Shown: positions 14,511 through 59,311 of the stretch, one piece after another
Layout of the letters: every line of letters starts with the position of its first letter
How positions within the stretch are numbered: the first letter of the stretch is position 1
NCBI RefSeq assembly: GCF_963921235.1
Contig: NC_086107.1
Coordinates: 93,250,001-93,314,000 of the forward strand
Length of the DNA stretch: 64,000 nt
Source of the DNA: Mobula hypostoma
Lineage: Eukaryota
Direction of reading: 5' to 3'
The notes under the pieces: model-generated
Databases searched by the model: none
Seen by the model: the letters and a program-made list of their open reading frames with translations, nothing else
What the model was told of the DNA's origin: nothing
Position numbers and translations under genes: made by a program

Positions 14511-14654
14511 AGACACAAGAGATTCTGCAAACACTGGAAATCCAGAGCAACAAAATGCTGGAGAAATGCAGCAGGTCAGATGGTATCTATGGAGAGGAAT
14601 AAACAGTCAAGACCGGAACCACCAGCTGTTTATACTTGTCCATAGATGCTGCCT
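14511..14654. mobile_element. Penelope terminal-repeat fold-back remnant (continues at 19569-19600)
   Basis: AAAATGCTGGAG..CAGCAGGTCAG..ATCTATGG arm followed by an inverted CCATAGATGCTGCCT arm; split by the 14655-19568 insertion. Confidence 0.7.
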
Positions 14655-14666
14655 CCTCCAAGAGGA

Positions 14667-20629: not shown

Positions 20630-20803
20630 GCATGAGATGCTGGAGGAACGCAGCAGGTCAGGCAGCTTCCGTGGAGGGGTATAAACAGGGGCCTCAGCCC
20701 AAAATGTCGACTGCTTATTCCCTCCATAGCTGCTGATTAACCTTCTGAGTTCCTCCAGCATTTTGTATGAGTTGCTTTGGATTTCCAGCACCTGCAGAAT
20801 CTT
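20630..20803. mobile_element. Penelope terminal-repeat fold-back remnant
   Basis: ATGCTGGAGGAACGCAG arm and inverted CTGAGTTCCTCCAGCAT arm; a similar fold-back lies at about 22405-22570. Confidence 0.7.
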
Positions 20804-21356
20804 TGGCACTTACATTTCAGTTAGCTCCCTCTCAGCTACGATGTGTGAACGAGTCATAGTGTGGCAGAGTCATACAGCACAGGTACAGGCCCTTCAGCCC
20901 CAACTGGTCCATGGCAACCAAGATGCCCATCTGAGCTAGTCCCATGTGCTTGCATATGGTCCATATCCCTCTAAACCTTTCTTACCTGTCCAAAGTCTTT
21001 TAAATGTTGTTAATGTACTTGTCTCGGCCACTTCCTCTGGCAGCTTGTTCCATATACCCAATATCCTCAAGGGAAAAAGTCGACCCTCAGGTTCTTATTA
21101 AATCTCTGCCCTCCCACCTTATAGTTATGCCCACTAAGTTTTCATTCCCCAACCCCGGGGGAGAGACTTCGTGTGTACTTTTGGTTGTTGGTGAATTGTA
21201 GATGCTGGCAGATACAGGAAGAGTGAGCCAAAAGTTCAGACCAGGCCAGCATTTAGATTTATTGACCTCTGAGGTCAGGAGCCTATATTGGCACGCCACA
21301 GTTCTTAGACAAAAAGTATCAACCCAGCCAACTAGTTCCCAATGCACTGCCTAAAT

Positions 21357-21764: not shown

Positions 21765-23002
21765 GCACTACCTAAATGTGCTGCAGGTCACAAGTCAGAA
21801 CATTTCCAATCAAAAGAGAGTATTAGACTGGGAACACCTCTGGGGAACTTCATCCAATGTCGTTGGGTTAATGCCCTGGAACTACCTATCTTGATGTACT
21901 GTATCTTCATCGCAGAGACTCACTGCGCATTCCTCAAGGACAACTAGCGGTGTTTAAATAATGTCACCCTCACCAATGAAGCCCACCTTGTAAGCGTTTC
22001 TAAAGATTAGTTTTGTTTGTCACATGTACATCAAAACATGGAAACATACAGTGAGATCCTCGTTTGTGTCAAATCAAATCAAGTCAGCGACCATGTACTG
22101 GGCCACTCTTCTGCCAACATAGCCTGCCGACAACTTACGGACCCTAATCCGTTTGTATTTGGAGTGAGGGAGGAAACCAGAGCACCTGGAGGAAACCCAT
22201 GTGGTCATGGGGAGAACGTAGAAACTGCCATACAGACAGCAGTGGAAATTGAACCCGAAGCAGCTATTACTGGTGCTGTGCTAGCCACTATGCTACCATG
22301 CTGTTCCTTCTGAGCTGATCCGTGGACCCAGTGGGAGCCACGATGGTAACAGTGAATCAGACGATGTTTCTCTTTCAGCCAACCCAGGGAAAGAGGCAGG
22401 AAATCAAAATCCTGCAGATGCAGGAAACCTGAAACAAAAGCTGAAAATGCTGGCAACATTCAGGAAGTCGGGCAGCATCAAAGGAGAGATAAGGCCCTTC
22501 GCTAATCGAGACCTTCTCTCCATAGATGCTGCCTGATCTGCTGTGTCTTTTTAGTATTCCCTGTTTTATTTTTTTTTTAAGTTTTGTTTCATCAGATCTT
22601 ATTGGATCAGCTTATAGTCATACACACCAGGGTGCAAGGAAATTCCTTGATCACATGAGTAAGCAGTAAACAATGTGAACTACAAAACAAGAGAGAGATG
22701 CTTAAGGACAGTTTAGTAGCATTGTGATTAGTGCAATGCTTTTCAGTGCCAGCGGTCACTCTGCATTCAGTTCCCCCCGCTGCTCTCCATAAGGAGCTCG
22801 TACATTCTCCCCGTGACCACGTGGGTTGCCTCTGGGTGCTCCTGTTTCCTCCCACGTTCCAATGACAAGGGGATTAGGGTTAGTAGGTTGTGGGCATGCG
22901 ATGCTGGTACCAGAAGCATGGTGACACTTGCCCTCGGCACATCCTCAGGCTGTGATGGTCGTTGACGCAAAGAATGCTTTTCACTGCGTGTTTCGATGCG
23001 GC

Positions 23003-25834: not shown

Positions 25835-27649
25835 AAACGCAAACAACAGGAATTCTGCAGATGCTGGAAATTCAAGCAACACACATCAAAGTTGCTGGTG
25901 AACGCAGCAGGCCAAGCAGCATCTATAGGAAGAGACGCAGTCGACGTTTCAGGCCGAGACCCTTCGTCAGGACTAACTGAAGGAAGAGTGAGTAAGGGAT
26001 TTGAAAGCTGGAGGGGGAGGGGGAGATGCAAAATGATAGGAGAAGACAGGAGGGGGAGGGATGGAGCCGAGAGCTGGACAGGTGATAGGCAGAAGGGGAT
26101 ACGAGAGGATCATGGGACAGGAGGTCCGGGAAGAAAGACGGGGGGGGGTGACCCAGAGGATGGGCAAGAGGTATATTCAGAGGGACAGAGGGAGAAAAAG
26201 GAGAGTGAGAGAAAGAATGTGTGCATAAAAAAGAGTAACAGATGGGGTACGAGGGGGAGGTGGGGCCTAGCGGAAGTTAGAGAAGTCAATGTTCATGCCA
26301 TCAGGTTGGAGGCTACCCATACGGAATATAAGGTGTTGTTCCTCCAACCTGAGTGTGGCTTCATCTTTACAGTAGAGGAGGCCGTGGATAGACATGTCAG
26401 AATGGGAATGGGATGTGGAATTAAAATGTGTGGCCACTGGGAGATCCTGCTTTCTCTGGCGGACAGAGCGTAGATGTTCAGCAAAGCGGTCTCCCAGTCT
26501 GCGTCGGGTCTCACCAATATATAAAAGGCCACATCGGGAGCACCGGACGCAGTATATCACCCCAGTCGACTCACAGGTGAAGTGATGCCTCACCTGGAAG
26601 GACTGTTTGGGGCCCTGAATGGTGGTAAGGGAGGAAGTGTAAGGGCATGTGTAGCACCTGTTCCGCTTACACGGATAAGTGCCAGGAGGGAGATCAGTGG
26701 GGAGGGATGGGGGGGACGAATGGACAAGGGAGTTGTGTAGGGAGCGATCCCTGCGGAATGCAGAGGGGGGGGGAGGGAAAGATATGCTTAGTGGTGGGAT
26801 CCCGTTGGAGGTGGCGTAAGTTACGGAGAATAATATGTTCGACCCGGAGGCTGGTGGGGTGGTAGGTGAGGACCAGGGGAACCCTATTCCTAGTGGGGTG
26901 GTGGGAGGATGGAGTGAGAGCAGATGTACGTGAAATGGGGGAGATGCGTTTAAGAGCAGAGTTGATAGTGGAGGAAGGGAAGCCCTTTTTTTAAAAAATG
27001 AAGACATCTCCCTCATCCTAGAATGAAAAGCCTCATCCTGAGAGCAGATGCGGCGGAGACGGAGGAATTGCGAGAAGGGGATGGCGTTTTTGCAAGAGAC
27101 AGGGTGAGAAGAGGAATAGTCCAGATAGCTGTGAGAGTCAGTAGGCTTATAGTAGACATCAGTGGATAAGCTGTCTCCAGAGACAGAGACAGAAAGATCT
27201 AGAAAGGGGAGGGAGGTGTCGGAAATGGACCAGGTAAACTTGAGGGCAGGGTGAAAGTTGGAGGCAAAGTTAATAAAGTCAACGAGTTCTGCATGCGTGC
27301 AGGAAGCAGCGCCAATGCAGTCATCGATGTAGCGAAGGAAAAGTGGGGGACAGATACCAGAATAGGCATGGAACATAGATTGTTCCACAAACCCAACAAA
27401 AAGGCAGGCATAGCTAGGACCCATACGGGTGCCCATGGCTACACCTTTAGTTTGGAGGAAATGGGAGGAGCAAAAGGAGAAATTATTAAGAGTAAGGACT
27501 AATTCTGCTAGACGGAGCAGAGTGGTGGTAGAGGGGAACTGATTAGGTCTGGAATCCAAAAAGAAGCGTAGAGCTTTGAGACCTTCCTGATGGGGGATGG
27601 AAGTATATAGGGACTGGACATCCATGGTGAAAATAAAGCGGTGGGGGCC
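25835..27649 (-). mobile_element. Young 5'-truncated Penelope-like retroelement (RT plus GIY-YIG endonuclease, 3' terminal repeat)
   Basis: ORF 26267..27742: MDVQSLYTSIP, GVAMGTRMGPSYA, RYIDD, YYKPTD, CNRCYTC-like Zn linker, VIYCVRCSRCGLLYIGET..RFAEH. The first ~31 codons of the ORF are CR1 antisense, not Penelope. Confidence 0.95.
25939..25974 (-). ncRNA. Minimal type I hammerhead ribozyme motif in Penelope terminal repeat
   Basis: Minus strand AGTC-CTGACGA-AGG(GTCTCGG)CCT-GAAA-C-GTC^-GACT: CUGANGA and GAAA core, stem I AGTC/GACT, stem II AGG/CCT, loop-less palindromic ACGT stem III, GUC cleavage triplet. Confidence 0.85.
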
Positions 27650-31415: not shown

Positions 31416-34320
31416 TAATCCTACTTGCCAAGGCCTTCTCATGGTCCCTTCTGGCTCTCCTAATTTCGTTTTTAAGCTCCTTCCTGCTAGCCTTATAATC
31501 CTCTAGATCTCTATCATTACCTAGTTTTTTGAACCTTTCGTAAGCTTTTTAACAGCCTTTCTACTCTATAGTTCCTGTACCCTACCATCCTTTCCCTGTC
31601 TCATTGGAACGTATCTATGCAACACTTGCCACATTTCTGTCATACATTTCCCTGAGAACATCTGTTTCCAATTTATTCTTCCAAGTTCCTGCCCCATAAC
31701 TTCAAACTTCCCCTTACTCGAATTAAATGCTTTCATAACTTGTCTGTTCCTATCCCTTTCCAATGCTATGGTAAAGGAGATAGAATGGTGATCACTATCT
31801 CCAAAATGCTCTTCCACTAAGAGACCTGACACCTGACCAGGTTCATTTCCCAATACCAGATCAAGTACAGCCTCTCCTCTTGTAGGCTTACCTACATATC
31901 GTGTCAGGAAACTCACCTAACAAACTCCACCCTATCTAAACCCTTTGCTCTAGGGAGATACCAATCAATACTTCGGAAATTAAAATCTCCCACCTGTTAT
32001 TATTACACTTTTCCAGAATCTTTCTCCCTATCTGCTCCTCGATGCTCCTGTTATTATTGGGCGGTCTATAAACAACACCCAGTAGAGTTATTGACCCCTT
32101 CCTGTTTCTAACTTCCACCTACAGAGACTCAGTAGACAATCCCTTCATGACTTCCTCCTTTATTGTAGCCGTAACACTATCTCTGATCAGCAGAGCCACG
32201 CATCCACCTGTTTTGCTTCCCTCCCTGTCCTTTCTGAAACACTTTAAGTAGCCATTGCTACCCCTGAGCCATCCAAGTCTCTGTAATGGCCACAACATCA
32301 TAGCTCCAACTACTGATCCACACTCTAAGCTTACCTGTCCTGTTCATGATGTTTCTTGCATTAAAATAGACACATCTCAAACCATCGATTTGGGCGTATC
32401 CTTTCTCTATCACCTGCCTATCCTCCCTCTCGTATTGTCCCCAGGCTTTCTCTATATGTGACCCAACTGCCCCTTCCTCCGTCTCTTCAGTTCAGTTCCT
32501 ACCTCCCAGCAATTCTAGTTTAAGCTCTCCCCAACAGCCTTAGCAAACCTCCCTGCCAGGATATTGGTCCCCCTCGGATTTAAGTGCAACCTGTCCTTTA
32601 TGTACAGGTCACGCCTGTCCCAAAAGAGGTCCCAATGATCCAGAAATCTGAATCCCTGTCCCCTGCTCCAATCCCTCAGCCACGCATTTATCCTCCACCT
32701 CACTCTATACTCACTGTTGTGTGGCACAGGCAGTAATCCTGAGATTACTACCTTTGAGGTCCTGCTTCTCAACTTCCTTCCTAACTCCCTGTAGTCTGCT
32801 TTCAGGACCTCCTCCCTTTTCCTACCTATGTCGTTGGTACCAATATGTACCACGACCTCTGGCTATTCACCTTCCCACTTCAGGATACCATGGATGCGAT
32901 TAGAAACATCCTAGACCCTGACACCTGGGAGGCAAACTACCATCCGTGCTTCTTTCTTGTGTCTACAGAATTGCCTGTCTGACCCCTAAACTGCCTTCTC
33001 CCTTTCCCTACCCTTCTGAGCCAAAGGGCCAGACCCTGTGCCAGAGGCATGGCCACTATTTCTTCCCCCAGGTAGGCCATCCCCCCAACAGTACTCAAAC
33101 AGAATACTTAGATTTCCTGAGATTTTCACGCACAACAGACAAAAAAAGACATCCAGTGAGCAGCAGTTCTGTGAGCGAAATGAGAGAGGTCAGAGGAGAA
33201 TGGTCAGACTGGTTCAAGCTGACAGGAAGGTGACAGTAACTCAAATAGCCACATATACCGAAGAGCATCTCTGAATGCACAATACGCCAAACCTTGAAGT
33301 GGATGGGCTACAGCAGCAGAAGACCATGAACTTATGGCCTGAGATAACTTTATTAGGTGCAAGAAGTATCTGAAGTGACCACTGACTGTAAGTCAACAAA
33401 ATGTAACATAAGACAAAAAGGCAGAAGACCCTTCAGCCCTTCATAGCTGCTTCACCATTCAACAACATGCACAAAATGCTGGAGGAACTCAGCAGACCAG
33501 GCAGCATCTATGGCAAAACGTACAGCCAACGTTTTGGGCTAAAACCCTTTGGCAGGCTTCACTATTCAGTGAGAGTGTGGTTAAGGTTTGGTCAGTTTCC
33601 CTGATTAATCCAGTATGGATTCCCCTAACATGGGAACATGTACTAATCTTATCCCTAAGTTCTCCAACTGATGTAAAAAAATTCCAAAGATTCGCTTATT
33701 TCTGTGTGAAGAAATTTTCCTCATCTTCTTCCTTGTGCTAAACACCACACTACCGCACTAGAGCTACTGCATCAGTTAAAAATGCTTTGGGGATACCCTG
33801 AGGTTCCAAAAGGCATGATAAAAATGCAAAAACTTGCTCCCTGCTACTAGAAAAGATTCTGAAGCAATCACTCAGCACAACTGTCATTTCCCAAATGACC
33901 CAAGCTGTGACTCTTATCATTGTGTTCCTTGGAACAATCATCTGCCTACCAAAGTCTGGCTTTCAGAATGCCTGAGCTTATTTCTGGCTGTTTGTGATCC
34001 AATGTGACTACTTATCTCTTCTCACACTCCTTTTAGTAATCTTCAATTACTCAACCACGGCATTGGTAGACAGGAAGAATGAATTAGCAAGCCCTGAGCA
34101 AACAAAGGAAGGCTGGAGATCAGAGGAATGGTTTCTCCCACAGAACAGAGCCTAATTGAGTGTAGAGTGAATCTTGTGGTCAGCTGAGCTGAATACTGGG
34201 TGTACATGAGGTTCAAGCCCCACGCCCGATCCTGGAACTAGGAAGAGGGCAGAGTCACAAAGACGAAACAGTTGACGATGCATGTTGATATAAAAAACTC
34301 ATTAAAGATTCTTTCAAGTG

Positions 34321-43620: not shown

Positions 43621-43889
43621 CATCTCGCAATTAAGTGCCAACCATTTTACTTATGAAGAGAGTTCTCCTCCGTGACCCTGACTGCTGTTTATACACTCCC
43701 AAAGACTGGCGTTAGGCAGGCATTTGCAGTTCTGAGCACTACCATCAGCAAACAAGAAACAGCCTGACCAAACACCTTTCTAATCACTGTTAGGTCTTCA
43801 CTCAGAGTCGTTTGAAGAACAATTATCATCAACATTTAACCTGTGGCACCAGGGGACCCAAAACACTTGACCATTAGTATACTATGACT

Positions 43890-46250
43890 ATCAATGCCTA
43901 CCGTTCCTCACTAGCATGCTACAACTAGCAATGCTTACTGTTCCCCACTAGTATACCACAACTAGCAATGCTTACGGTTCCTCACTAGCATGCTACAACT
44001 AGCAATGCTTACTGTTCCCCACTAGTATACCACAACTAGCAATGCCTACTGTTCCCCACTAGTATACCACAACTAGCAATGCTTACTGTTCCTCACTAGT
44101 ATACTACAACTAGCAATGCTTACGGTTCCCCACTAGTATACCGCAACTAGCAATGCTTACTGTTCCCCACTAGTATACCGCAACTAGCAATGCTTACTGT
44201 TCCTCACTAGTATACTACAACTAGCAATGCTTACTGTTCCCCACTAGTATATCACAACTAGCAATGCTTACTGTTCCCCACTAGTATACCACAACTGGTA
44301 ATAGAAACATAGAAACATAGAAAATAGGTGCAGGAGTAGGCCATTCGGCCCTTCGAGCCTGCACCGCCATTTATTATGATCATGGCTGATCATCCAACTC
44401 AGAACCCCACCCCAGCCTTCCCTCCATACCCTCTGACTCCCGTAGCCACAAGGGCCATATCCAACTCCCTCTTAAATATAGCCAATGAACTGGCCTCAAC
44501 TGTTTCCTGTGGCAGAGAATTCCACAGATTCACCACTCTCTGTGTGAAGAAGTTTTTCCTAATCTCGGTCCTAAAAGGCTTCCCCTCTATCCTCAAACTG
44601 TGGCCCCTCATTCTGGACTTCCCCAACATCGGGAACAATCTTCCTGCATATAGCCTGTCCAATCCCTTTAGGATTTTATACGTTTCAATAAGATCTCCCC
44701 TCAATCTTCTAAATTCCAATGAGTATAAGCCTAGTTGATCCAGTCTTTCATCATATGAAAGTCCTGCCATCCCAGGAATCAATCTGGTGAACCTTCTTTG
44801 TACTCCCTCTATGGCAAGGATGTCTTTCTTCAGATTAGGGGACCAAAACTGCACACAATACTCCAGGTGTGGTCTCACCAAGGCCTTGTACAACTGCAGT
44901 AGTACCTCCCTGCTCCTGTACTCGAATCCTCTCACTATAAATGCCAGCATACCATTCGCCTTTTTCACCGCCTGCTGTACCTGCATGCCCACTTTCAATG
45001 ACTGGTGTATAATGACACCCAGGTCTCGTTGCACCTCCCCTTTTCCTAATCGGCCACCATTCAGATAATAATCTGTTTTCCTATTTTTGCCACCAAAGTG
45101 GATAACTTCACATTTATCCACATTAAATTGCATCTGCCATGAATTTGCCCACTCACCCAACCTATCCAAGTCACCCTGCATCCTCTTAGCATCCGCCTCA
45201 CAGCTAACACTGCCACCCAGCGTCGTGTCATCCGCAAACTTGGAGATGCTGCATTCAATTCCCTCACCTAAGTCATTAATATATATTGAAAACAACTGGG
45301 GTCCCAGCACTGAGCCTTGCGGTACCCCACTAGTCACTGCCTGCCATTCTGAAAAGGTCCCGTTTATTCCCACTCTTTGCTTCCTGTCTGCTAACCAATT
45401 CTCCACCCACACCAATACCTTACCCCCAATACCGTGTGCTTTAAGTTTGCACACTAATCTCCTGTGTGGGACCTTGTCAAAAGCCTTTTGAAAATCCAAA
45501 TATACCACATCCACTAATTCTCCCCTATCCACTCTACTAGTTACATCCTCAAAAAATTCTATGAGATTCGTCAGACATGATTTTCCTTTCACAAATCCAT
45601 GCTGACTTTGTCCGATGATTTCACCGCTTTCCAAATGTGCTGTTATCACATCCTTGATAACTGACTCCAGCAGTTTCCCCACCACCGACATTAGGCTAAA
45701 CGGTCTATAATTCCCCAGTTTCTCTCTCCCTCCTTTTTTAAAAAGTGGGGTTACATTAGCCACCCTCCAATCCTCAGGAACTAGTCCAGAATCTAACGAG
45801 TTTTTAAAAATTATCACTAATGCATCCACTATTTCTTGGGCTACTTCCTCAAGCACTCTAGGATGCAGACTATCTGGCCCTGGGGATTTATCTGCCTTCA
45901 ATCCCTTCAATTTACCTAACACCACTTCCCTACTAACATGTATTTCGCTCAGTTCCTCCATCTCACTGGACCCTCTGTCCCCTACTATTTCTGGAAGATT
46001 ATTTATGTCCTTTTTAGTGAAGACAGAACCAAAGTAATTATTCAATTGGTCTGCCATGTCCTTGCTCCCCATAATCAATTCACCTGTAATGCTTACTGTT
46101 CCCCACTAGTATACCACAACTAGTAATGCTTACTGTTCCCCATGAGTATACTACAACTAGCAATGCTTACTGTTCCTCACTAGTATACCACAACTAGCAA
46201 TGCTTACTGTTCCCCACTAGTATACCACAACTAGCAATGCCTACTGTTCC
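43890..46250. repeat. 37-bp minisatellite (about 11 copies at 43890-44302 and 4.5 copies at 46087-46250) split by CR1
   Basis: Unit CTAGCAATGCTTACTGTTCCCCACTAGTATACCACAA in head-to-tail copies. Confidence 0.95.
44303..46086 (-). mobile_element. Young 5'-truncated CR1 LINE with uninterrupted 559-aa RT ORF
   Basis: ORF 44399..46078: KSPGPD, GNYRP, DFQKAFDKVPH, GVPQGSVLGP, KFADDT, with no stops; (CATAGAAA)n tail; GTAAT present at both junctions. Confidence 0.97.
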
Positions 46251-46299: not shown

Positions 46300-48815
46300 A
46301 ATCTTGGCAGAGGCTGAGGAGAGGCTATGGGATTGCTTCAACTTGGTGGACTGGGCCATGTTCAAGGACTCGTCAGAGTGTCTGAACGAATACACAGCAG
46401 TTATCACAGACTTCATAAAATCAGTCATAGACGAATGTGCTCCTGCAGAATCAAGAGGTCCTTTCCAAAGCAGAAGCCCTGGATGAACCATGAGATCTGT
46501 GATCAGCTGAGGCCAGATCAGTGGCATTCAGGTCTGGTGACCAAGTAAAATACTAGAGGTCCAGGTACGATCTCTAGAGAGACACCTCACATATGAAGTG
46601 GCAATTTCGGGCTAGACTGAATCACTGAAGGATGCTGAGCAGCCCTGGCAGGGTTTGAATCACCTCTTTAAAGGTGAAACCAAGTGACATAGATGATGAC
46701 AGGCTTTGCTCCCAGATGGCTCAATGTCTTTTATGTTCTCCTTGACCATCAAAACATGAAGGCACCTTCATGAACTCCCACAGGCCCAATAACTCTGTGA
46801 TTTTAGTCTTTGAGGCCAACTTGAGAGCATCCTTTAGGAGGGTGAACCCACGGAAAGCACCTAGCCTAGATGGGATACCTGGCTGAGTAATATAGACCTG
46901 TGCTGATCAACTGGCTGGTGTGTTCACCGATATCTTTAACCTCTCGCTTCGGCAGTCTGAAGTGCCAACCTACTTCAAGAAGACTTCAATTATACCGGTG
47001 CCTAATAAGAACATAGTAACCTGCTTCAATGACTATCATCCAGTAGCACTTACATCCACTGTGATGGAGTGTTTTGAGGGTTTGGTGATGAAACATATCA
47101 ACTCCTGCCTGAGAAGCAACTTGGATCTACTCCAATTTGCCTACTGTCACAGTAGACGCCATCTCATTGGCTCTTCACTCAACCCTGGAACATCTGGACA
47201 GCAAAGATGCATACGTCAGGATGCTCTTTATCGACTACAGCTCAGCATTCAATACCATCATCCCCTCAAAACTGATCAATAAGCTCCAACCCCTTAGTCT
47301 CAATACCTCCACTGCAACTGAATTCTCAATTTCCTCACTTTCCCAGTAAGTCTGGATTGGTAACAGCATCTCCTCTACAATCACCATCAGCACAGGTTGT
47401 GTGCTTAGCCCCCTGCTCTACTCATTTTATACTTAGGACTGTAGGCTAAGTACGGCTCCAAGCCATATTTAAGTTTACTGATGACACCACTGTTGTTGGC
47501 TGAATCAAAGGCAGTAACGAATCAACATATAGGAGGGAGATTGAAAATCTGGCTGAGTGGTGCCACGACACCAACCTCTCAGTCAATGTCAGCAAGGCCA
47601 AGGAGCTGATTATTGACGGCAGGAGGAGGAAAGCAGAGGTCCATGAACCAGTCCTCAATGAGGGGATCTGAGGTGGAGAGGGTCAGCAAATGTAAATTCC
47701 TCGGTGTTAGCATTTCAGGGGATCAGTTCTGGGTCCAGCATGAAGAAAGCATGGCAGTGCTTTAAAAGTTTGTGAAGATTTGGCATGTCATCTAAAACTT
47801 TGCCAAACTTCTATAGATACGTGGTGGAGAGTATATTGACAGTTGCATCATGCCTGGTATGGAAACACCAACACCTTTGAATGGAAAAACCTACAAAAAG
47901 TACCCAGTCCATCACGGGTAAAGCCCTCTCCACCATTGAGCACTATCACAGGAAAGCAGCATCCATTATCAAGGGCCCCCACCTTCAAGGTCATGCTCTG
48001 TTCTCACTGTCACCATCAGGAAGAAGGTACATGAGATTCAGGACCCACAGCACCAGGTTCAGGAACAGTTATTACCCCTCAGCCATCAGGAAGGAGGTAC
48101 AGGAGCCTCAGGTCCCACACCACCAGGTTCAGGAACAGTTATTAGCCCTCAACCATCAGGCTATTGAACCAAAAGGGATAACTTCACTCAACTTCACTCG
48201 CCCCATCACTGAACTGTTCCCATAACCTATGGACCCACTTTCAAGGATTCTTCATCTCATGGTCGCAATATTTATTGCTTATTTATTAATTATTATTTTA
48301 TAAATTTTTGTTTCTATTTCTATTTACACAGTTTGTTCTCTTTTGCACTTTGGTTGTTTGTCCATCCTGTTGGATACGGTCGTTCATTGCTTCTATTCTG
48401 TTTCTTGTATTTACTGTGAACGCCAGCAAGAAAATGCTGTATATGGTGACATAAATGTACTTGGGCGCGTGGCCAAGTGGTTAAGGCATTTGACCAGCAA
48501 TCTGAAGGTTGTGAGTTCGAGCCTCAGCCGAGGCAACGTGTTGTACCCTTGAGCAAGGCACTTAGTCACACAGTGCTCTGCGACGACACCAGTGCCAAGC
48601 TGTATGGGTCCTAATGCCCTTCCCTTGGACAACATTGGTGTCGTGGAGAGGGGAGACTTGCAGCATGGCCAACTGCCAGTCTTCCATATAACCTTGCCCA
48701 GGCCTGTGCCCTGGAGAGTGAAGACTTTCCAGGCGCAGATCCATGGTCTCGCAACACTAACGGATGCCTTTTTTTAAAATGTACTTGGATAATAAATTTA
48801 CTTTGAACTTTGAAC
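46300..48815 (+). mobile_element. Degraded Rex1/Babar-like LINE
   Basis: [53 protein letters not shown]; (TTGAAC)n tail at about 48803-48815. Confidence 0.88.
48465..48776 (+). mobile_element. tRNA-derived SINE with CORE-like domain
   Basis: A box TGGCCAAGTGG, B box GAGTTCGAGCC, CCTTGAGCAAGGCACTTA core; 12-bp TSD AAATGTACTTGG at 48453-48464 and 48777-48788. Confidence 0.9.
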
Positions 48816-49449: not shown

Positions 49450-52400
49450 GCTGTCACGTGAACCATCTACAAAACTTCCTGTAGCAGCCCTGCAAGCCAC
49501 CTCCCAGATATTTCACAGCACAGCCTGGCAGAACAAGGTGCACCACCACCTCCAAGATATGCCTCGCCCTGACACTGTTCCTTCACAGGCGCATAGAGCC
49601 ATAGAGCACTACCGCACAGAAACAGGTCTTGCAGCCCATCTGGTCTGGCCGAGCCTTATTCTGCTGCATGAGAGAAAGCAGTACTATTGATGGGGACTTC
49701 TTTTTCCTAGAAACTTGTCTTTGTCTTCACCTTGGTCCACATGGCCTCCAGCTCTGTTTTTGGGCTTCTGAGTTTGGACCCACTGTGGATCCCAGGTAGC
49801 TGTGTTCGATTGACTGCATCTCCTGCCGCCTCTCCCTTTGAATTCTACGCACCACCTTCTCCGCCACCCAGAGATACTTGCAGGCCCTGTCTCAGTTCTG
49901 CCATAGCTCCAAGCCTCATTCTCCACCGCCTGCCATGGACCTCTCCAACACTTCATCCTCTGCTGGATCCATGCCTTCATCTGCCGGTTCTCCTCCTTCC
50001 TCAAGCCCAGGAAGGATTAGAAAATCTCCCATCTTCAGACCCTGGCCCCTGCTACCTCCTGTTCGGACATCATCTCAACTAGGTGACTCCAGGCTGCAGA
50101 TCCCTCCATCTCCAAATCTGGTTACACAGCTCTGGATGCATTTAGACCACACATGGCCCCTACTGTCTCCCACTCGATTATCGATTTGATCAGATGACTC
50201 CAGACCGGATCCCCTCTGGTTACGATAACTTTGGACGCATCCAGACCACATATATCACTGATGCCAACTCCAGTTCCAATGGCCGGGATGCCTTCAGACC
50301 ACAAATTGCACAGCTCCAGCCCTGACCTCAACTGCTTCTACTTCCAGGCTGAGTCTTTTCTCACTGCCACTGGGCACTTGGGCTCACTTCCCCCACCACT
50401 ACTTCCCAACCTTGGGTCTCTCAGACCCCTATCCCCACTTAGGTCCTCAAAGGCTCCATCTTCCTCCATCCTACCTTCCCTGAATACCTCAAATCCTCCG
50501 CTCTCCTCTGACACCACTAACTCTCTTCTCCCCTCTGATTCCCTGCTGCGTCTTCACAATTCTCTCCGACCTACCCCTCTCTGAGGTGGAAAGTTCTGTT
50601 CTCAACAAGGGCCTTAACTTTGTCCCCTTTTGGCCCCACCTTAGCGAGATCTGCTGCCACCACAATGCCAAACTCTTCTTCCGTCACCTCCAGTTCCAAG
50701 CTCACTCAAGATTCCCCAGCCTGCACCGATGACTGCTTCTCCTCTTCTTGGACACAACACTCTGATTTTCTGGCTTCTTTAGATCTTTTCATCTCTAATT
50801 GTCATCAAGATATCAACTGGCTTGACTTCAGCACTCCTCACTCCTCCTCAAACTTATCCCCTTTGAATACATTGTCCTCCACTCTCATCACACCAATCCC
50901 AACCTCACCATCAAACCTGCAGACAAAGGGGGTGCTGTTGTAGTGTGGCAAACAGACCTCCACTTTGCTGAGGTCACCTCCTCTTACTTACCTCTTGTAA
51001 AGGAGCCCACTCAGGACCATCCGATCATTGTCTCCCACCTCATCACCAATTTCATCAGCTCTGGAGATCTCCCATCCACTGCTACCAACTTCATAGTTCC
51101 CTTACAGTTCATTTCTACCTCCTACCAAAGATCTGACTATCTAGGTAAGCCCACGGTTTCTGCCTGCCCCTGACCCAGTGAACTCATGTCCTCATACCTC
51201 AACTCCATTTTATCTCCCATGGTTCAGTCTCTTCCCACCTATATCAGTGACACTTCATGATCTCCTCTAAAATTTCCAATTCCTTGGCACTGGTTGCCTC
51301 ATTTTCACCATAGATGTCCAGTCCCTAAGCACTTCTATCCCCCATCAAGAAGACCTCAATTCTCTCTGCTTCTTTCTCGACAACAGACCCGACCAGTTCC
51401 CCTCCACCACCACTCTCCTCCATCTGGTGGAACTGGTCCTCACTCGCAACAATTTCTCTTTCTCCAAATTCAAAGTTTAGCCTGCACGGGTGCCAGCTAT
51501 GCCTGCCCCTTCACTGGCCACCACATGGTAAAGACCATGTTCCAAGCCTTCCCTGGTAATGTTCTCAGCTCTTCCTGTGCCATATTGATGACTGCATTAG
51601 TGCCATAGTACCACTTCCTGCACCCATGGTGAGCTCGTCAATTTCATCAACCTTGCCTCTGACTTCCATCCTGCCCTTAAGTTCACCTCTCTCCCCTTTC
51701 TTGGTCTCTCTGTCTTCATATCTGGGGGCAAAATATCTACTGATACCTTTTATAAACCTACCAATTCCCATGGCTATTTTGACTATACCTCTTCCCACCC
51801 GTCTCCTGTAAAAATGCCATTCTTTTTTATTAGTTCCTTTGGCTACACTGCATCTGTTCCCAGGATGAAATTTTCCTTTCCAGTAGATCAGTGATGTCCT
51901 CTTTCTTCGAAGAACAAGGTTTTCCTTTCTCCACCATTGATATTGCTCTCATCCACTTCCCCTCTATTTCCCGAACACCTTCATTCTTCCCATCTTCCTG
52001 CTGTCTTAGCAGGGATTGAGTTCCTTTTGGCCTCACCTACCACCCCATGAGCTTCCATATTCAACCCATCATTCTTCGCAACTTCTGCCATCTTCAACAG
52101 GACTTTACCACCAAGCACATCTTCACCTCTCCCCATCCCACTCTCCACTTTCCACAGGGATCGGTCCCTCCGTGATTCCCTTGTTCGTTCGTCCCTCCCC
52201 ACTAATCTCCCCTGCAAGCAGCAGAAGTGCTAAGCCTGCCCGTTCACCTCCTCCCTCATCTCCAAACAGTTCACCCAAACAGTTCTTTCAGGTGAGGCAA
52301 CACTTTACCTGCAAATCTGTTGGGATCATTGGCTGTATCCGGTGCTCCCAGTGCACATTGGTGAGGTCCGTCATAGATTGGGGAATTGCTTTGCTGAACA

Positions 52401-52498
52401 CCTTCACTCTACCCACAAAAAGCAGGAATTCCTGGTGGCCAATATTTCAATTTCAATCCTTATTTCCATTCGGACATGTCGGTCCATGGCCTCCTCTG
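49450..52498 (+). mobile_element. Old, heavily degraded near full-length Penelope-like element
   Basis: Frameshifted motifs LSEVESSVLNKGLNFVP (about 50577), IKPADKGGAVV (about 50910), FTIDVQSL (about 51304), IDDCI (about 51584) and FQVRQHFTCKSVGIIGCIRCSQC (about 52285). Confidence 0.85.
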
Positions 52499-54344: not shown

Positions 54345-54668
54345 AAATAATAATAATAATAATAATAGGCATCCGTTAATCTCACGAAACCATGGATTTG
54401 CGCCTTGGAAGGTTTCCACGGCGCAGGCCTGGGCAAGGTTGTATGGAAGACTGGCAGTTGCCCATGCTGCAAGTCTCCCCTCTCCATGCCACTGATGTTG
54501 TCCAAGGGAAGGGCATCAGGACCCATACAGCTGGACATCAGTGTCATCGCAGAGCAATGTGTGGTTAAGTGCCTTGCTCAAGGACACAACACGCTGCCTC
54601 AGCCAAGGCTTGAACTAGCGACCTTCAAATCACTAGACGAATGCCTTAACCACTTGGCCATGCTCCAA
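54345..54668 (-). mobile_element. tRNA-derived SINE, same family as 48465-48776
   Basis: Reverse-complement match over the full length; (TAT)n tail. Confidence 0.9.
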
Positions 54669-56825: not shown

Positions 56826-58104
56826 CGTCTGGGAAAAGGCAAACAGGTAGAGACGAGCAGCCTTCTATCTGGTAAGCTCCCCAGGCCTCCCATTCCAGCA
56901 CCGCAGCCCAACTCACTCTCTCTATCCTCCTCCACACCCCGACGGTTCTATGAACACAGGAGGCTGCTGTGGATTCAGGCACGGCAGACATCTTTCTGGA
57001 GCAGACTTTATGAGTGCGGCTTGGACTCCCTACCGAGCCTATCGCTCACTCCCCCTTCATCACAGTCATCGACAGATGTCCCTTGGGCTCTAGGATGGTC
57101 AGTGCCTGTGCACATGAGTATCAGAGAGCACCGCAGGTCTATCCAATCTCTCCTGATCATTCAACTAACACCCCTCTCATCCCGGGTTACCACTGGCTCT
57201 CCACTTAGGATCCTCTCTTTGCACGGTCATCCGGTTCACTGCTGAGTTTGGGACCCACCTGCCTGCAGCCCCAGCTGACCTCACCCCATAAATCCCTGGA
57301 GACCGAGGAAACTGACGACCTCATCAAATTCCCAGCGGAATACCATAACTTCATAGTTCAAAGTAAATTTATTATTGAAGAGTGTATATATATATATATA
57401 TATGTCACCATATACAACCCTGAGATTCATTTTCTTGCGGACATATATTTAATCAAAGAATGACCACACCAATTTATGCATTCAAACAGTGAGCAAAAGA
57501 CACAAACCATGCAAATACAAAAAGAAAAAAATACTAATAACAAATAGAGAAGCAATAAATACTGAAAACATGAGATGAAGATTCCTTGGAAGTGAGTCCA
57601 TTGGTTTCAATGATGAGGCAAGTGAAGTTGAGTGAAATTATCCTCTTTAGTTCAAGAGCCCAGTGGTTGAGGGCAATAACTGTTCCTGAACCTGGTGGTG
57701 TGAGTCCTGAGGCTCCTGCACCTTCTTCCTGTGACTGTAGCGAGAAAAGAGCATGGCCTGGATAGTGGAGGTCCCTGAAGATAGATAGTGCTTTCCTGCG
57801 ATTAAACTTCGTGTAGATATGCTCAACAGTGGGGAGGGCTTTACCCATGATGGACTGGGCCGTATCCATTACCTTTTGTAGGAGTTTCCGCTCCAGGGCA
57901 TTAGTGTTTCTGTAGCAGGCTGTGATGCAGCCAGTCAATATACTCTCCACTGCACACCTATAGAAGTTTGTCAAGATATCATGCCGAATCTTCACGAACT
58001 CCTAAGGAAATAGAGGTGCTTCCATGTTTTCTTTGTATTTGCACCTACTGGAAGTGGGCTCAGGACAGGTCCTCAAAAACAGTAAAACTGAGGAGCGTAA
58101 AGGT

Positions 58105-58266
58105 AACACACATCAAAGTTGCTGGTGAACGCAGCAGGCCAGGCAGCATCTGTAGGAAGAGATGCAGTCGACGTTTCAGGCCGAGACCCTTCGTCAGGAC
58201 TGCTGCGTTCACCAGCAACTTTGATGTGTGTTGCTTGAATTTCCAGCATCTGCAGAATTCCTGTTG
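58105..58266. mobile_element. 162-bp Penelope-derived fold-back mini-element
   Basis: 13-bp TSD GGAGCGTAAAGGT at 58092-58104 and 58267-58279; perfect 33-bp inverted repeat 58105-58137 / 58200-58232; nearly identical to 25845-25974. Confidence 0.93.
58166..58201 (-). ncRNA. Minimal hammerhead ribozyme motif (identical to 25939-25974)
   Basis: AGTC-CTGACGA-AGG(GTCTCGG)CCT-GAAA-C-GTC-GACT on the minus strand. Confidence 0.85.
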
Positions 58267-59311
58267 GGAGCGTAAAGGTGTTGACTCTCTCTACCTCCGA
58301 TCCACCGATGAGGACTGGCTCACGAATCTGTGGTTTCCTCCTCCTGAAGTCAATAATCAGCTCCTTGGTCTTGTTGATACTGAGTAAGAAGTTGTTGGTG
58401 TGGCACCACTCAGCTGGATTTTCAGTCCCCATCTTATATGCTGATTTATCTCCACCTTTGATTCGGCTACAACAATGGTGTTGTCAACAAACCTGAATAT
58501 CAGAATCAGAATCAGATTTAATATCACTGGCATATGTCGTGAAATTTATTAACTTTATGCCAGCAGTACAATGAAATACATGGTAAATATTGAGAAAAAA
58601 AAACTGAGTTACATTGAGTATATATGTCTATTAAATAGTTCAGTTAAAATAAGCAGTGCAAAATAACAGAAATAAAAAAGTAGTGAGGTCGTGTTCATGG
58701 GTTCAATGTCCATTTAGGAATCAGATGGCAGAGGGGAAGAAGCTGTTCCTGAATCGCTGAGTGTGTGCTTTCAGGCTTCTGTACCTCCTTCCTGACAGGA
58801 ACAATGAGAAGAGGCATGACCTGGATGGTGGGGATCCTTAATGATGGACGCTGGCTTCCTAAGGCACTGCTCCTTGAAGATGTCTTGGATACCACAGAAG
58901 TTGGTACCCATGACTAACTTTACAAGTTTCTGCAACTTTAGTCAATCTTGTGCAGTACCTCCCCATAAACCAGATTATGGCATTGGAGTTGTGCTTAGCC
59001 ACACAGTCATAAGTGTAAAGCGAGTAAAGCAAGAAGCTTGTGGTGGACTTATGCTGATGGAGATTGTGGAGGAGATGTTGTTGCCAATCTGAACTGACAG
59101 GGGTCTGCAAGTGAGGAAATTGAGGAAATTACTCACCCGAGCACCGATCCACAGCAGATGCCACCTTAGCCATCTCCTTCAGTAAAAGAGAAACCAGCAC
59201 CCGGCCACCTTACAGGCTACACAACTACATGATCGACCTCTTCCTAGGCACCATCTCTCCCCAGGGTAGTCTGTTCTCCCTCTCTCCTCCTGAAACCCAA
59301 GCTATGAATGA

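What the first reader, a model, noticed from the sequence alone, without database searches (positions are those of the whole stretch)
58092..58279. 162-bp hammerhead-containing fold-back mini-retroelement with a perfect 13-bp TSD
Seen: the insert consists only of Penelope terminal-repeat sequence: a perfect 33-bp inverted repeat enclosing an intact minimal hammerhead, with the inversion point at the end of stem I. It is almost identical to the terminal repeat of the young Penelope at 25835-27649. Known: Penelope insertions often have inverted 5'-truncated repeats and minimal hammerheads. Inference: either an extremely truncated insertion or a retrozyme-like non-autonomous element mobilised by that family.
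Basis: partly seen in the sequence, partly recalled or inferred. Interest (0 to 1): 0.7.

Follow-up and report, generated by a model that had tools for sequence, protein, structure and literature searches.

The report
Twin-primed Penelope retrotransposon stub
This 162-base hairpin is a real, young insertion made only of the end of a very abundant Penelope-like jumping gene, in a layout already described for that class, and it was likely stitched together on landing from two short DNA copies of the element's RNA rather than being a ribozyme-driven mini-element of its own.

Summary
Observation confirmed: 162-nt insert (58105-58266), exact 13-nt TSD, perfect 33-bp inverted repeat, minimal hammerhead (on the minus strand, with a G-U in place of the usual G10.1-C11.1 pair). 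It is two head-to-head pieces of the end of the Neptune/Nematis-type Penelope at 25835-27649 (94/97 and 67/67 identical), joined at a 2-nt overlap. Their outer ends differ by 34 nt, the known one-sided Penelope 'tail' that separates two reverse-transcription start sites. Best reading: both nicked target strands primed a cDNA; one stopped at the hammerhead's 5' foot and the two annealed. A stop hot spot plus microhomology accounts for the recurrence; a small self-copying subfamily is not excluded (about 12%). It is not a retrozyme (one hammerhead, no tandem array). The scan reported this kind of stub many times before, in this genome and others.

The parts
58092..58104 (.). Left copy of 13-nt target-site duplication
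   Evidence: exact repeat; single copy in paralogous host repeats
58105..58201 (-). Arm 1: 97 nt of the Penelope end (parent 25974 to 25878), from the hammerhead's 5' foot to the inner end site; element sense is the minus strand
   Evidence: 94/97 identity, differences at 58142, 58152, 58163
58165..58202 (-). Minimal type I hammerhead: 5-bp stem I, full core, 4-bp stem II with G-U at 10.1-11.1, no stem III loop (4-nt palindrome); predicted cut between 58170 and 58169
   Evidence: motif scan, drawn and folded; activity untested
58200..58201 (.). Junction: 2-nt overlap shared by both arms (4 of 5 matches counting leftwards)
   Evidence: exact junction 31-mers in runs X1, X2, X5
58200..58266 (+). 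Arm 2: 67 nt of the Penelope end (parent 25910 to 25844), element sense on the plus strand
   Evidence: 67/67 identity
58105..58137 (+). Left arm of the perfect 33-bp inverted repeat (partner 58200-58232); it is the stretch that both arms copied
58233..58266 (+). 34-nt one-sided tail (parent 25877 to 25844)
   Evidence: matches the 30-40-bp tail of PMC8557442, PMC3846280, PMC11167929
58267..58279 (.). Right copy of 13-nt target-site duplication
57750..58500 (-). Host: decayed older interspersed repeat, LINE-like by recalled resemblance only
   Evidence: 71% and 57% identical copies in window; no Pfam hit for two fragments
25835..27649 (-). Young 5'-truncated parent-family element; open frame 26267-27649 with RT C-terminal part, CX4CxxC linker and GIY-YIG nuclease; same hammerhead at 25938-25975
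   Evidence: (both Pfam hits below gathering score)
33449..33567 (-). Independent older-family solo copy, 95 nt (33461-33555) in an 11/12 TSD, with nearly the same two ends as arm 1
20635..20805 (.). Older-family fold-back with another breakpoint, tail on one arm
22402..22571 (.). Older-family fold-back with another breakpoint, tail on one arm
14515..14657 (.). Older-family fold-back with another breakpoint (second arm weakly aligned)

Best explanation
The insert is a minimal insertion of an endonuclease-bearing Penelope-like element, likely built at this site when both nicked target strands primed reverse transcription on the element's uncut RNA and the two short cDNAs were joined head to head. 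Shown: all 162 nt are element end sequence in two opposed arms; 13-nt TSD; outer ends 34 nt apart on the element; 2-nt overlap at the join; the hammerhead spans its own cut site. Inferred: the nuclease made nicks 13 nt apart; the plus-strand end primed at the inner start site (parent 25878) and copied 97 nt to the hammerhead's 5' foot, a preferred stop (RNA end or pause); the minus-strand end primed at the outer start site (25844) and its copy was kept for 67 nt; the 3' ends annealed at the 2-nt overlap and repair filled both strands. The 33-bp inverted repeat is just the stretch copied twice. The hammerhead is a passenger; the copy is most likely a dead end, and look-alikes elsewhere are most likely made independently.
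For: Anatomy. Inverted 5'-truncated copy, one-sided 30-40-bp tail and 8-10-bp TSDs are the described unit of these elements (PMC8557442, PMC3846280; passages). Purified Anolis Poseidon protein cleaves and extends both target strands, starts at two internal sites whose spacing is the tail, and uses uncut RNA (PMC11167929, parts 1-2 of 4). A single self-primed cDNA cannot give this order without a template jump, because the tail sits on the short arm (sequence logic). Breakpoints are diverse: 58 joints at 99% likeness (15 shown), 525 at 93% (15 shown), and 3 older fold-backs in the window each break elsewhere. Stop at the hammerhead foot is repeated by an independent older solo copy with its own TSD. 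Given that stop, only 12 sites in the parent's 25878-25974 offer the 2-nt overlap and the one used is among the 4 best, so recurrence is expected: junction depth of about 18 single-locus equivalents against a rough 5,000 family tails, about 0.4% (rough).
Against: The exact junction is multi-copy: whole contigs matching across it have depth 260 (X1), 202.8 (X2), 131.9 and 133.3 (X5) against 14.4 for the locus flank in X1, higher than any other single-contig joint listed for X1 (top 94.7), though high-copy joints break into short contigs that the joint table would miss. No genome was held, so copies could not be compared. The target is not AT-rich (46% AT), unlike the Anolis preference. Twin priming and the run-off have not been shown for a Neptune-type protein; Arkhipova 2013 explains such inversions by self-priming instead. 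The read-based pile-up at the foot (4 of 15 and 9 of 12 listed rows) is biased because the reference arm ends there.
Confidence: 0.74

Rival explanations
1. The 162-nt fold-back arose once and has since been copied as a unit by the parent family's protein: a small non-autonomous, MITE-shaped Penelope derivative. A plus-strand transcript carries both start sites; two cDNAs from it would anneal over the 33-nt repeat and would regenerate the same unit.
For: Junction at about 10-35 times single-locus depth in two organisms; the insert's three-variant haplotype itself stands at only about 50 single-locus equivalents in X1 (depth 700); non-autonomous PLE derivatives exist (Chlamys/MRC1, PMC8557442 passage); another joint with 5 extra letters reaches depth 205 in X5 only.
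Against: Hundreds of other joints; hot spot plus microhomology is numerically enough; the 33-bp stem is predicted to bury the inner start site; neither strand holds both the upstream region and the tail that the Anolis minimal template needed (analogy only); stem identical to the parent, no editing scar.
Confidence: 0.12
2. One cDNA stopped at the hammerhead foot, snapped back on itself at the 4-of-5 match and self-primed the second arm, then jumped to another template for the tail (self-priming model).
For: Self-priming is the published hypothesis for PLE palindromic junctions (PMC3846280); the cDNA end can pair with its own 58136-58140.
Against: Needs an extra jump to gain the 34-nt tail and to join the second target end; the two-ended model gives tail, TSD and repeat in one step (sequence logic).
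Confidence: 0.1
3. A retrozyme-type element that is cut out by its hammerhead, circularises and reinserts.
For: Minimal hammerhead present, size near the 150-450-bp range, long TSD (PMC7229834 passages); retrozymes are argued to derive from PLE repeats (bioRxiv 10.64898/2026.07.22.740005).
Against: One hammerhead only; no tandem array here; insert ends do not lie at the cut site; inverted layout; ribozyme fold costs about 12 kcal/mol against the free ensemble in the insert.
Confidence: 0.02
4. Assembly artefact.
For: Hairpins can mislead assemblers; right junction had no cover at 99%.
Against: Exact TSD; left flank plus 23 insert letters in one exact contig at flank depth (X1; X1 may be the assembled sample); junction words in two organisms.
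Confidence: 0.02

Closest known systems
Insertion unit of EN+ Penelope-like elements (Penelope/Poseidon, Neptune, Nematis, Naiad): pLTR, adjacent inverted 5'-truncated copy, one-sided 30-40-bp tail, TSD (PMC8557442; PMC3846280, e.g. Pen2a_Av with 31-bp tail and 9-bp TSD; passages read)
   Same: Head-to-head arms, 34-nt tail on one end, TSD, hammerhead in the repeat, microhomology join.
   Different: No ORF at all; total 162 nt; TSD 13 nt; simple two-arm form without the partial tandem.
Anolis Poseidon (PAc) in vitro system (PMC11167929; parts 1-2 of 4 read)
   Same: Two internal start sites one tail apart; both strands cut and extended; uncut RNA as template; little or no target-RNA homology.
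   Different: Parent here has the CX4CxxC linker (Neptune/Nematis type, absent in Poseidon); target not AT-rich; that paper does not show the joining of two cDNAs.
Minimal hammerheads of metazoan PLEs (PMC4209133; parts 1-2 of 4 read)
   Same: Type I core, extra base after A9, no stem III loop, palindromic 15.2-16.2 region; the paper also notes opposite-strand pairs 100-700 bp apart and mostly solitary motifs from truncated PLEs.
   Different: Stem II only 4 bp and closed by G-U instead of the conserved G10.1-C11.1.
Non-LTR retrozymes (PMC7229834, passages; bioRxiv 10.64898/2026.07.22.740005, part 1 of 5 and passages)
   Same: Short, non-coding, type I hammerhead, long TSD, PLE-related.
   Different: Those are direct tandem repeats with a hammerhead in each unit, processed to circles; this is one inverted unit with one hammerhead.
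L1 twin-priming inversions (recalled, not from a call)
   Same: Inverted 5' piece, microhomology join, TSD.
   Different: No poly(A); both primers start at fixed internal sites 34 nt apart so the arms overlap and form an inverted repeat.

Membership tests
EN+ Penelope-like element insertion | Sequence derives from an element with RT and C-terminal GIY-YIG nuclease | tested here: met
   161/164 aligned letters match 25844-25974; parent frame hits RVT_1 (9e-5) and GIY-YIG (4e-4), both below gathering score
EN+ Penelope-like element insertion | Inverted 5'-truncated copy adjacent head to head | tested here: met
EN+ Penelope-like element insertion | 30-40-bp tail at one end only | tested here: met
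   34 nt, 58233-58266
EN+ Penelope-like element insertion | Target-site duplication | tested here: met
   13 nt; single in host paralogues
EN+ Penelope-like element insertion | Hammerhead motif in the terminal repeat | tested here: met
Neptune/Nematis clades | CX2-5CxxC linker between RT and nuclease | tested here: met
   residue 327 of the parent frame (definition)
Neptune/Nematis clades | RT phylogeny places it in the clade | not tested
   no tree built; parent is 5'-truncated
Non-LTR retrozyme | Direct tandem repeats of the unit | tested here: not met
   no tandem array at the locus; other loci not examined
Non-LTR retrozyme | At least two hammerheads in the same orientation to release a monomer | tested here: not met
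   one core in the insert
Non-LTR retrozyme | Self-cleavage and circular RNA | not testable with these tools
   only contigs available; folding predicts a mispaired core
Replicating non-autonomous PLE derivative | Multiple copies with the same junction | tested here: met
   junction contigs at about 10-35 times single-locus depth in 3 of 3 DNA runs laid at 99%
Replicating non-autonomous PLE derivative | Copies descend from one another (shared private mutations, same whole unit) | not testable with these tools
   no genome held; contigs too short to link the junction to the nearest variant 36 nt away

The most novel reading that the evidence does not exclude
The fold-back is a self-regenerating, MITE-shaped Penelope parasite: 10-35 copies per genome in at least two species descend from one another, because two cDNAs primed on its plus-strand RNA anneal over the 33-nt inverted repeat and rebuild exactly the same 162-nt unit, with no ribozyme cut or circle needed.
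Probability: 0.12. Interest if true: 0.6.

Novelty: new member of a known kind. Interest (0 to 1): 0.22.

Why it matters
As a single copy it is ordinary. Its value is as a clean in vivo record of a step that PMC11167929 and PMC8557442 both call unresolved: how Penelope-like elements make inverted ends and a one-sided tail. It fits two-ended priming with a preferred stop at the hammerhead's front edge. It also warns that 'same breakpoint at several loci' does not prove a replicating mini-element in this class. If the junction-sharing copies did prove to be one lineage, it would be a non-autonomous inverted-repeat retroelement that repeat pipelines would misfile as a DNA transposon.

Tried and rejected
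Whole-genome survey: no genome held. Rfam: no hammerhead family hit; mir-2 match is below gathering score and reflects the hairpin; microRNA reading rejected. Pattern scans for the junction and for the family end found 0 loci in metagenome contigs and 0 in viral contigs. Earlier findings by sequence and by near place: nothing. Expression: no RNA holder listed; in the run guessed to be RNA (X15) one 31-letter piece reaches 4 letters past the junction, too little to use. Presence or absence at the orthologous site in organism B and polymorphism within organism A: no empty-site joint among the 15 rows shown in either lay and no cover of the right junction at 99%; holes prove nothing; only one DNA sample of organism A had useful cover. 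My first hammerhead drawing (3-bp stem II) was replaced by the 4-bp register. Cofolding two motifs gave a non-catalytic dimer as lowest energy; it cannot model the active dimer, so it is not used as evidence. Host repeat family: no Pfam hit. TSD searches for the three older fold-backs and the 25835 copy found nothing convincing. DNA-transposon (MITE) reading rejected: repeat is terminal on one side only, TSD 13 nt, all sequence from a retroelement. ADAR write-back rejected for this copy: stem identical to parent. Paper searches listed no paper on ORF-less fold-back PLE stubs in cartilaginous fishes or on twin priming in PLEs; most subscription papers are not in the library and no supplements were read.

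Full report
Observation. The sequence at 58092-58279 is as described: a 13-nt exact direct repeat (58092-58104, 58267-58279) encloses 162 nt that hold a perfect 33-nt inverted repeat (58105-58137, 58200-58232). Both strands fold far better than shuffles (z -9.74 and -9.65; 0 of 200). The direct repeat is a true duplication: with the insert and one copy taken out in a script, the host aligns without a gap across the 13-mer to two older copies of the same host repeat (71% and 57% identity). Such a repeat around a 162-nt span was found at 10 of 9058 sampled positions, not itemised. In run X1 one contig matches 57946-58127 with no difference at depth 14.4, like other flank contigs (13.0, 13.9); it reaches only 23 letters into the insert and X1 may be the assembled sample, so this is modest support.

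Anatomy. The element at 25835-27649 lies on the minus strand, with an open frame (26267-27649) that hits RVT_1 and GIY-YIG below their gathering scores and has a CX4CxxC linker at residue 327, the mark of Neptune and Nematis elements (PMC8557442, passages); no tree was built. The insert is two opposed pieces of its end. Arm 1 (58105-58201) equals 25878-25974 at 94/97; arm 2 (58200-58266) equals the reverse complement of 25844-25910 at 67/67; they share 2 letters at the join, 4 of 5 counting leftwards. The inverted repeat is simply the stretch present in both arms. The outer ends differ by 34 nt on the element (25878 against 25844).

Hammerhead. It reads on the minus strand, 58202 to 58165: 5-bp stem I, complete core, one extra base, 4-bp stem II, and a 4-nt palindrome in place of stem III; predicted cut between 58170 and 58169. 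This is the minimal type of PMC4209133 (parts 1-2 of 4), which showed no cleavage as a monomer and low cleavage as a dimer. Here position 11.1 is U, not the conserved C, in insert and parent alike. The open-core fold costs 12.1 kcal/mol against the free ensemble in the insert, 9.9 in the parent context and 4.2 in isolation. Rfam has no matching family. Arm 1 runs through the cut site, so its template was uncut. There is one hammerhead and no tandem array.

What is known. An inverted 5'-truncated copy, a 30-40-bp tail at one end and a TSD are the typical insertion unit of endonuclease-bearing Penelope-like elements (PMC8557442 and PMC3846280, passages). Purified Anolis Poseidon protein cleaves and extends both target strands, starts at two internal RNA sites whose spacing is the tail, needs no target homology and uses uncut RNA (PMC11167929, parts 1-2 of 4). 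Non-LTR retrozymes are direct tandem repeats with a type I hammerhead per unit (PMC7229834, passages; bioRxiv 10.64898/2026.07.22.740005, part 1 of 5 and passages). No supplements were read. Five searches listed no paper on ORF-less fold-back stubs in cartilaginous fishes; the library lacks most subscription papers.

Mechanism. Shown: composition, TSD, 34-nt offset, overlap. Inferred: nicks 13 nt apart; the plus-strand 3' end primed at the inner site and copied 97 nt to the hammerhead's 5' foot; the minus-strand 3' end primed at the outer site; the two cDNA ends annealed at the 2-nt overlap and were filled in. Target-RNA homology is slight: 2 of 6 letters at the inner site and 3 of 6 at the outer; four TSD letters (58270-58273) are in register with parent 25837-25840, three letters short of the primer end, which could be chance. 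The target is 46% AT, not AT-rich as in the Anolis work. A single self-primed cDNA, the model of PMC3846280, needs an extra jump because the tail is on the short arm.

Is it a family? No genome was held, so I laid public contigs. At 99% likeness, whole contigs match across the junction in 3 of 3 DNA runs: 58183-58222 at depth 260 (X1), 58184-58222 at 202.8 (X2, same sample), 58177-58222 at 131.9 and 58193-58225 at 133.3 (X5, another organism) (32 of 45,521 pieces shown). They have fewer than 31 letters on each side, below the tool's bar for bridging, but every 31-letter word in them contains the junction. Against long, low-depth contigs taken as single-locus, this is 18-20 fold (X1), 15-35 fold (X2) and 11-17 fold (X5); the tool warns that depth is no copy number, so these are rough. 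This result goes against a purely one-off reading and is why the replicating rival keeps 12%. On the other side, 58 other joints were counted at 99% (15 shown; depth 16.9-94.7 in X1) and 525 at 93% (15 shown; not all are fold-backs); the tail region suggests roughly 5,000 young copies (rough), so this junction is about 0.4% of them. Three older fold-backs in the window (14515-14657, 20635-20805, 22402-22571) break elsewhere and carry the tail on one arm. An older solo copy of 95 nt (33461-33555) in an 11/12 TSD has nearly the same two ends as arm 1, so arm 1 is a stereotyped product. With that stop fixed, 12 sites in 25878-25974 give the 2-nt overlap and the one used is among the 4 best. In one search, 4 of 15 and 9 of 12 listed joints leave from 58197-58201, but the reference arm ends there, so this is biased. 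The junction could not be linked to the insert's own variants (nearest 36 nt away) or to its outer ends. Presence in organism B at this locus and polymorphism stay open.

Earlier notes. My reading before looking was twin priming with a recurrent breakpoint. Notes from this scan describe the same stubs many times in this genome and others (123 findings in at least 32 genomes hold the search words). They supplied the idea that copies stop at the hammerhead's front edge because an RNA end lies there (e1-8157733, e1-9150879), which I could test only in part, and one reports a different junction recurring about 400 times (e1-8034071, not tested). These are unchecked notes and not independent support. 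They call the host a ray-like fish; I did not test that.

Verdict. Real, young, and a minimal member of a known insertion type; not a retrozyme. Twin priming with a stop at the hammerhead foot 0.74; self-copying subfamily 0.12; self-priming 0.10; retrozyme 0.02; artefact 0.02. Interest 0.22.

Noticed in passing
window 33449-33567: Solo 95-nt older-family copy in an 11/12 TSD, running from the inner end site to the hammerhead's 5' foot, with no second arm and no tail.
   Followed up: partly
window 14515-14657: Old fold-back whose arms both seem to turn near the predicted ribozyme cut site, with about 17 unclear letters between; too decayed to call.
   Followed up: partly
window 25835-27649: Young 1.8-kb 5'-truncated Neptune/Nematis-type element with an uninterrupted 460-aa frame; no exact TSD of 6 or more and no inverted arm found; flanks look like non-adjacent parts of an older repeat.
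   Followed up: partly
joint 58129 to 58224: A fold-back-like joint with 5 extra letters at depth 205 in organism B (X5) and 0 in X1, X9, X11: possibly an amplified single junction.
   Followed up: no
joint 58194 to 58244: Another joint at depth 696 only in the run guessed to be RNA (X15): possibly one highly transcribed stub.
   Followed up: no
58098-58126: The young-family stretch has summed depth in the millions in organisms A and B but 49,414 and 804 in C and E, suggesting a lineage-limited burst.
   Followed up: no
window 43871-44296 and 46088-46250: Two arrays of the same 37-nt unit (11.5 and 4.4 copies) about 1.8 kb apart, around a LINE-like fragment.
   Followed up: no
window 48464-48715 and 54415-54666: Two 86% identical copies of a repeat with a tRNA-like head (sub-threshold Rfam tRNA hit at 48468-48530), probably a tRNA-derived SINE.
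   Followed up: no
window 51296-52497: A second, older Penelope-like fragment, 68% identical to the coding part of the 25835-27649 copy.
   Followed up: no
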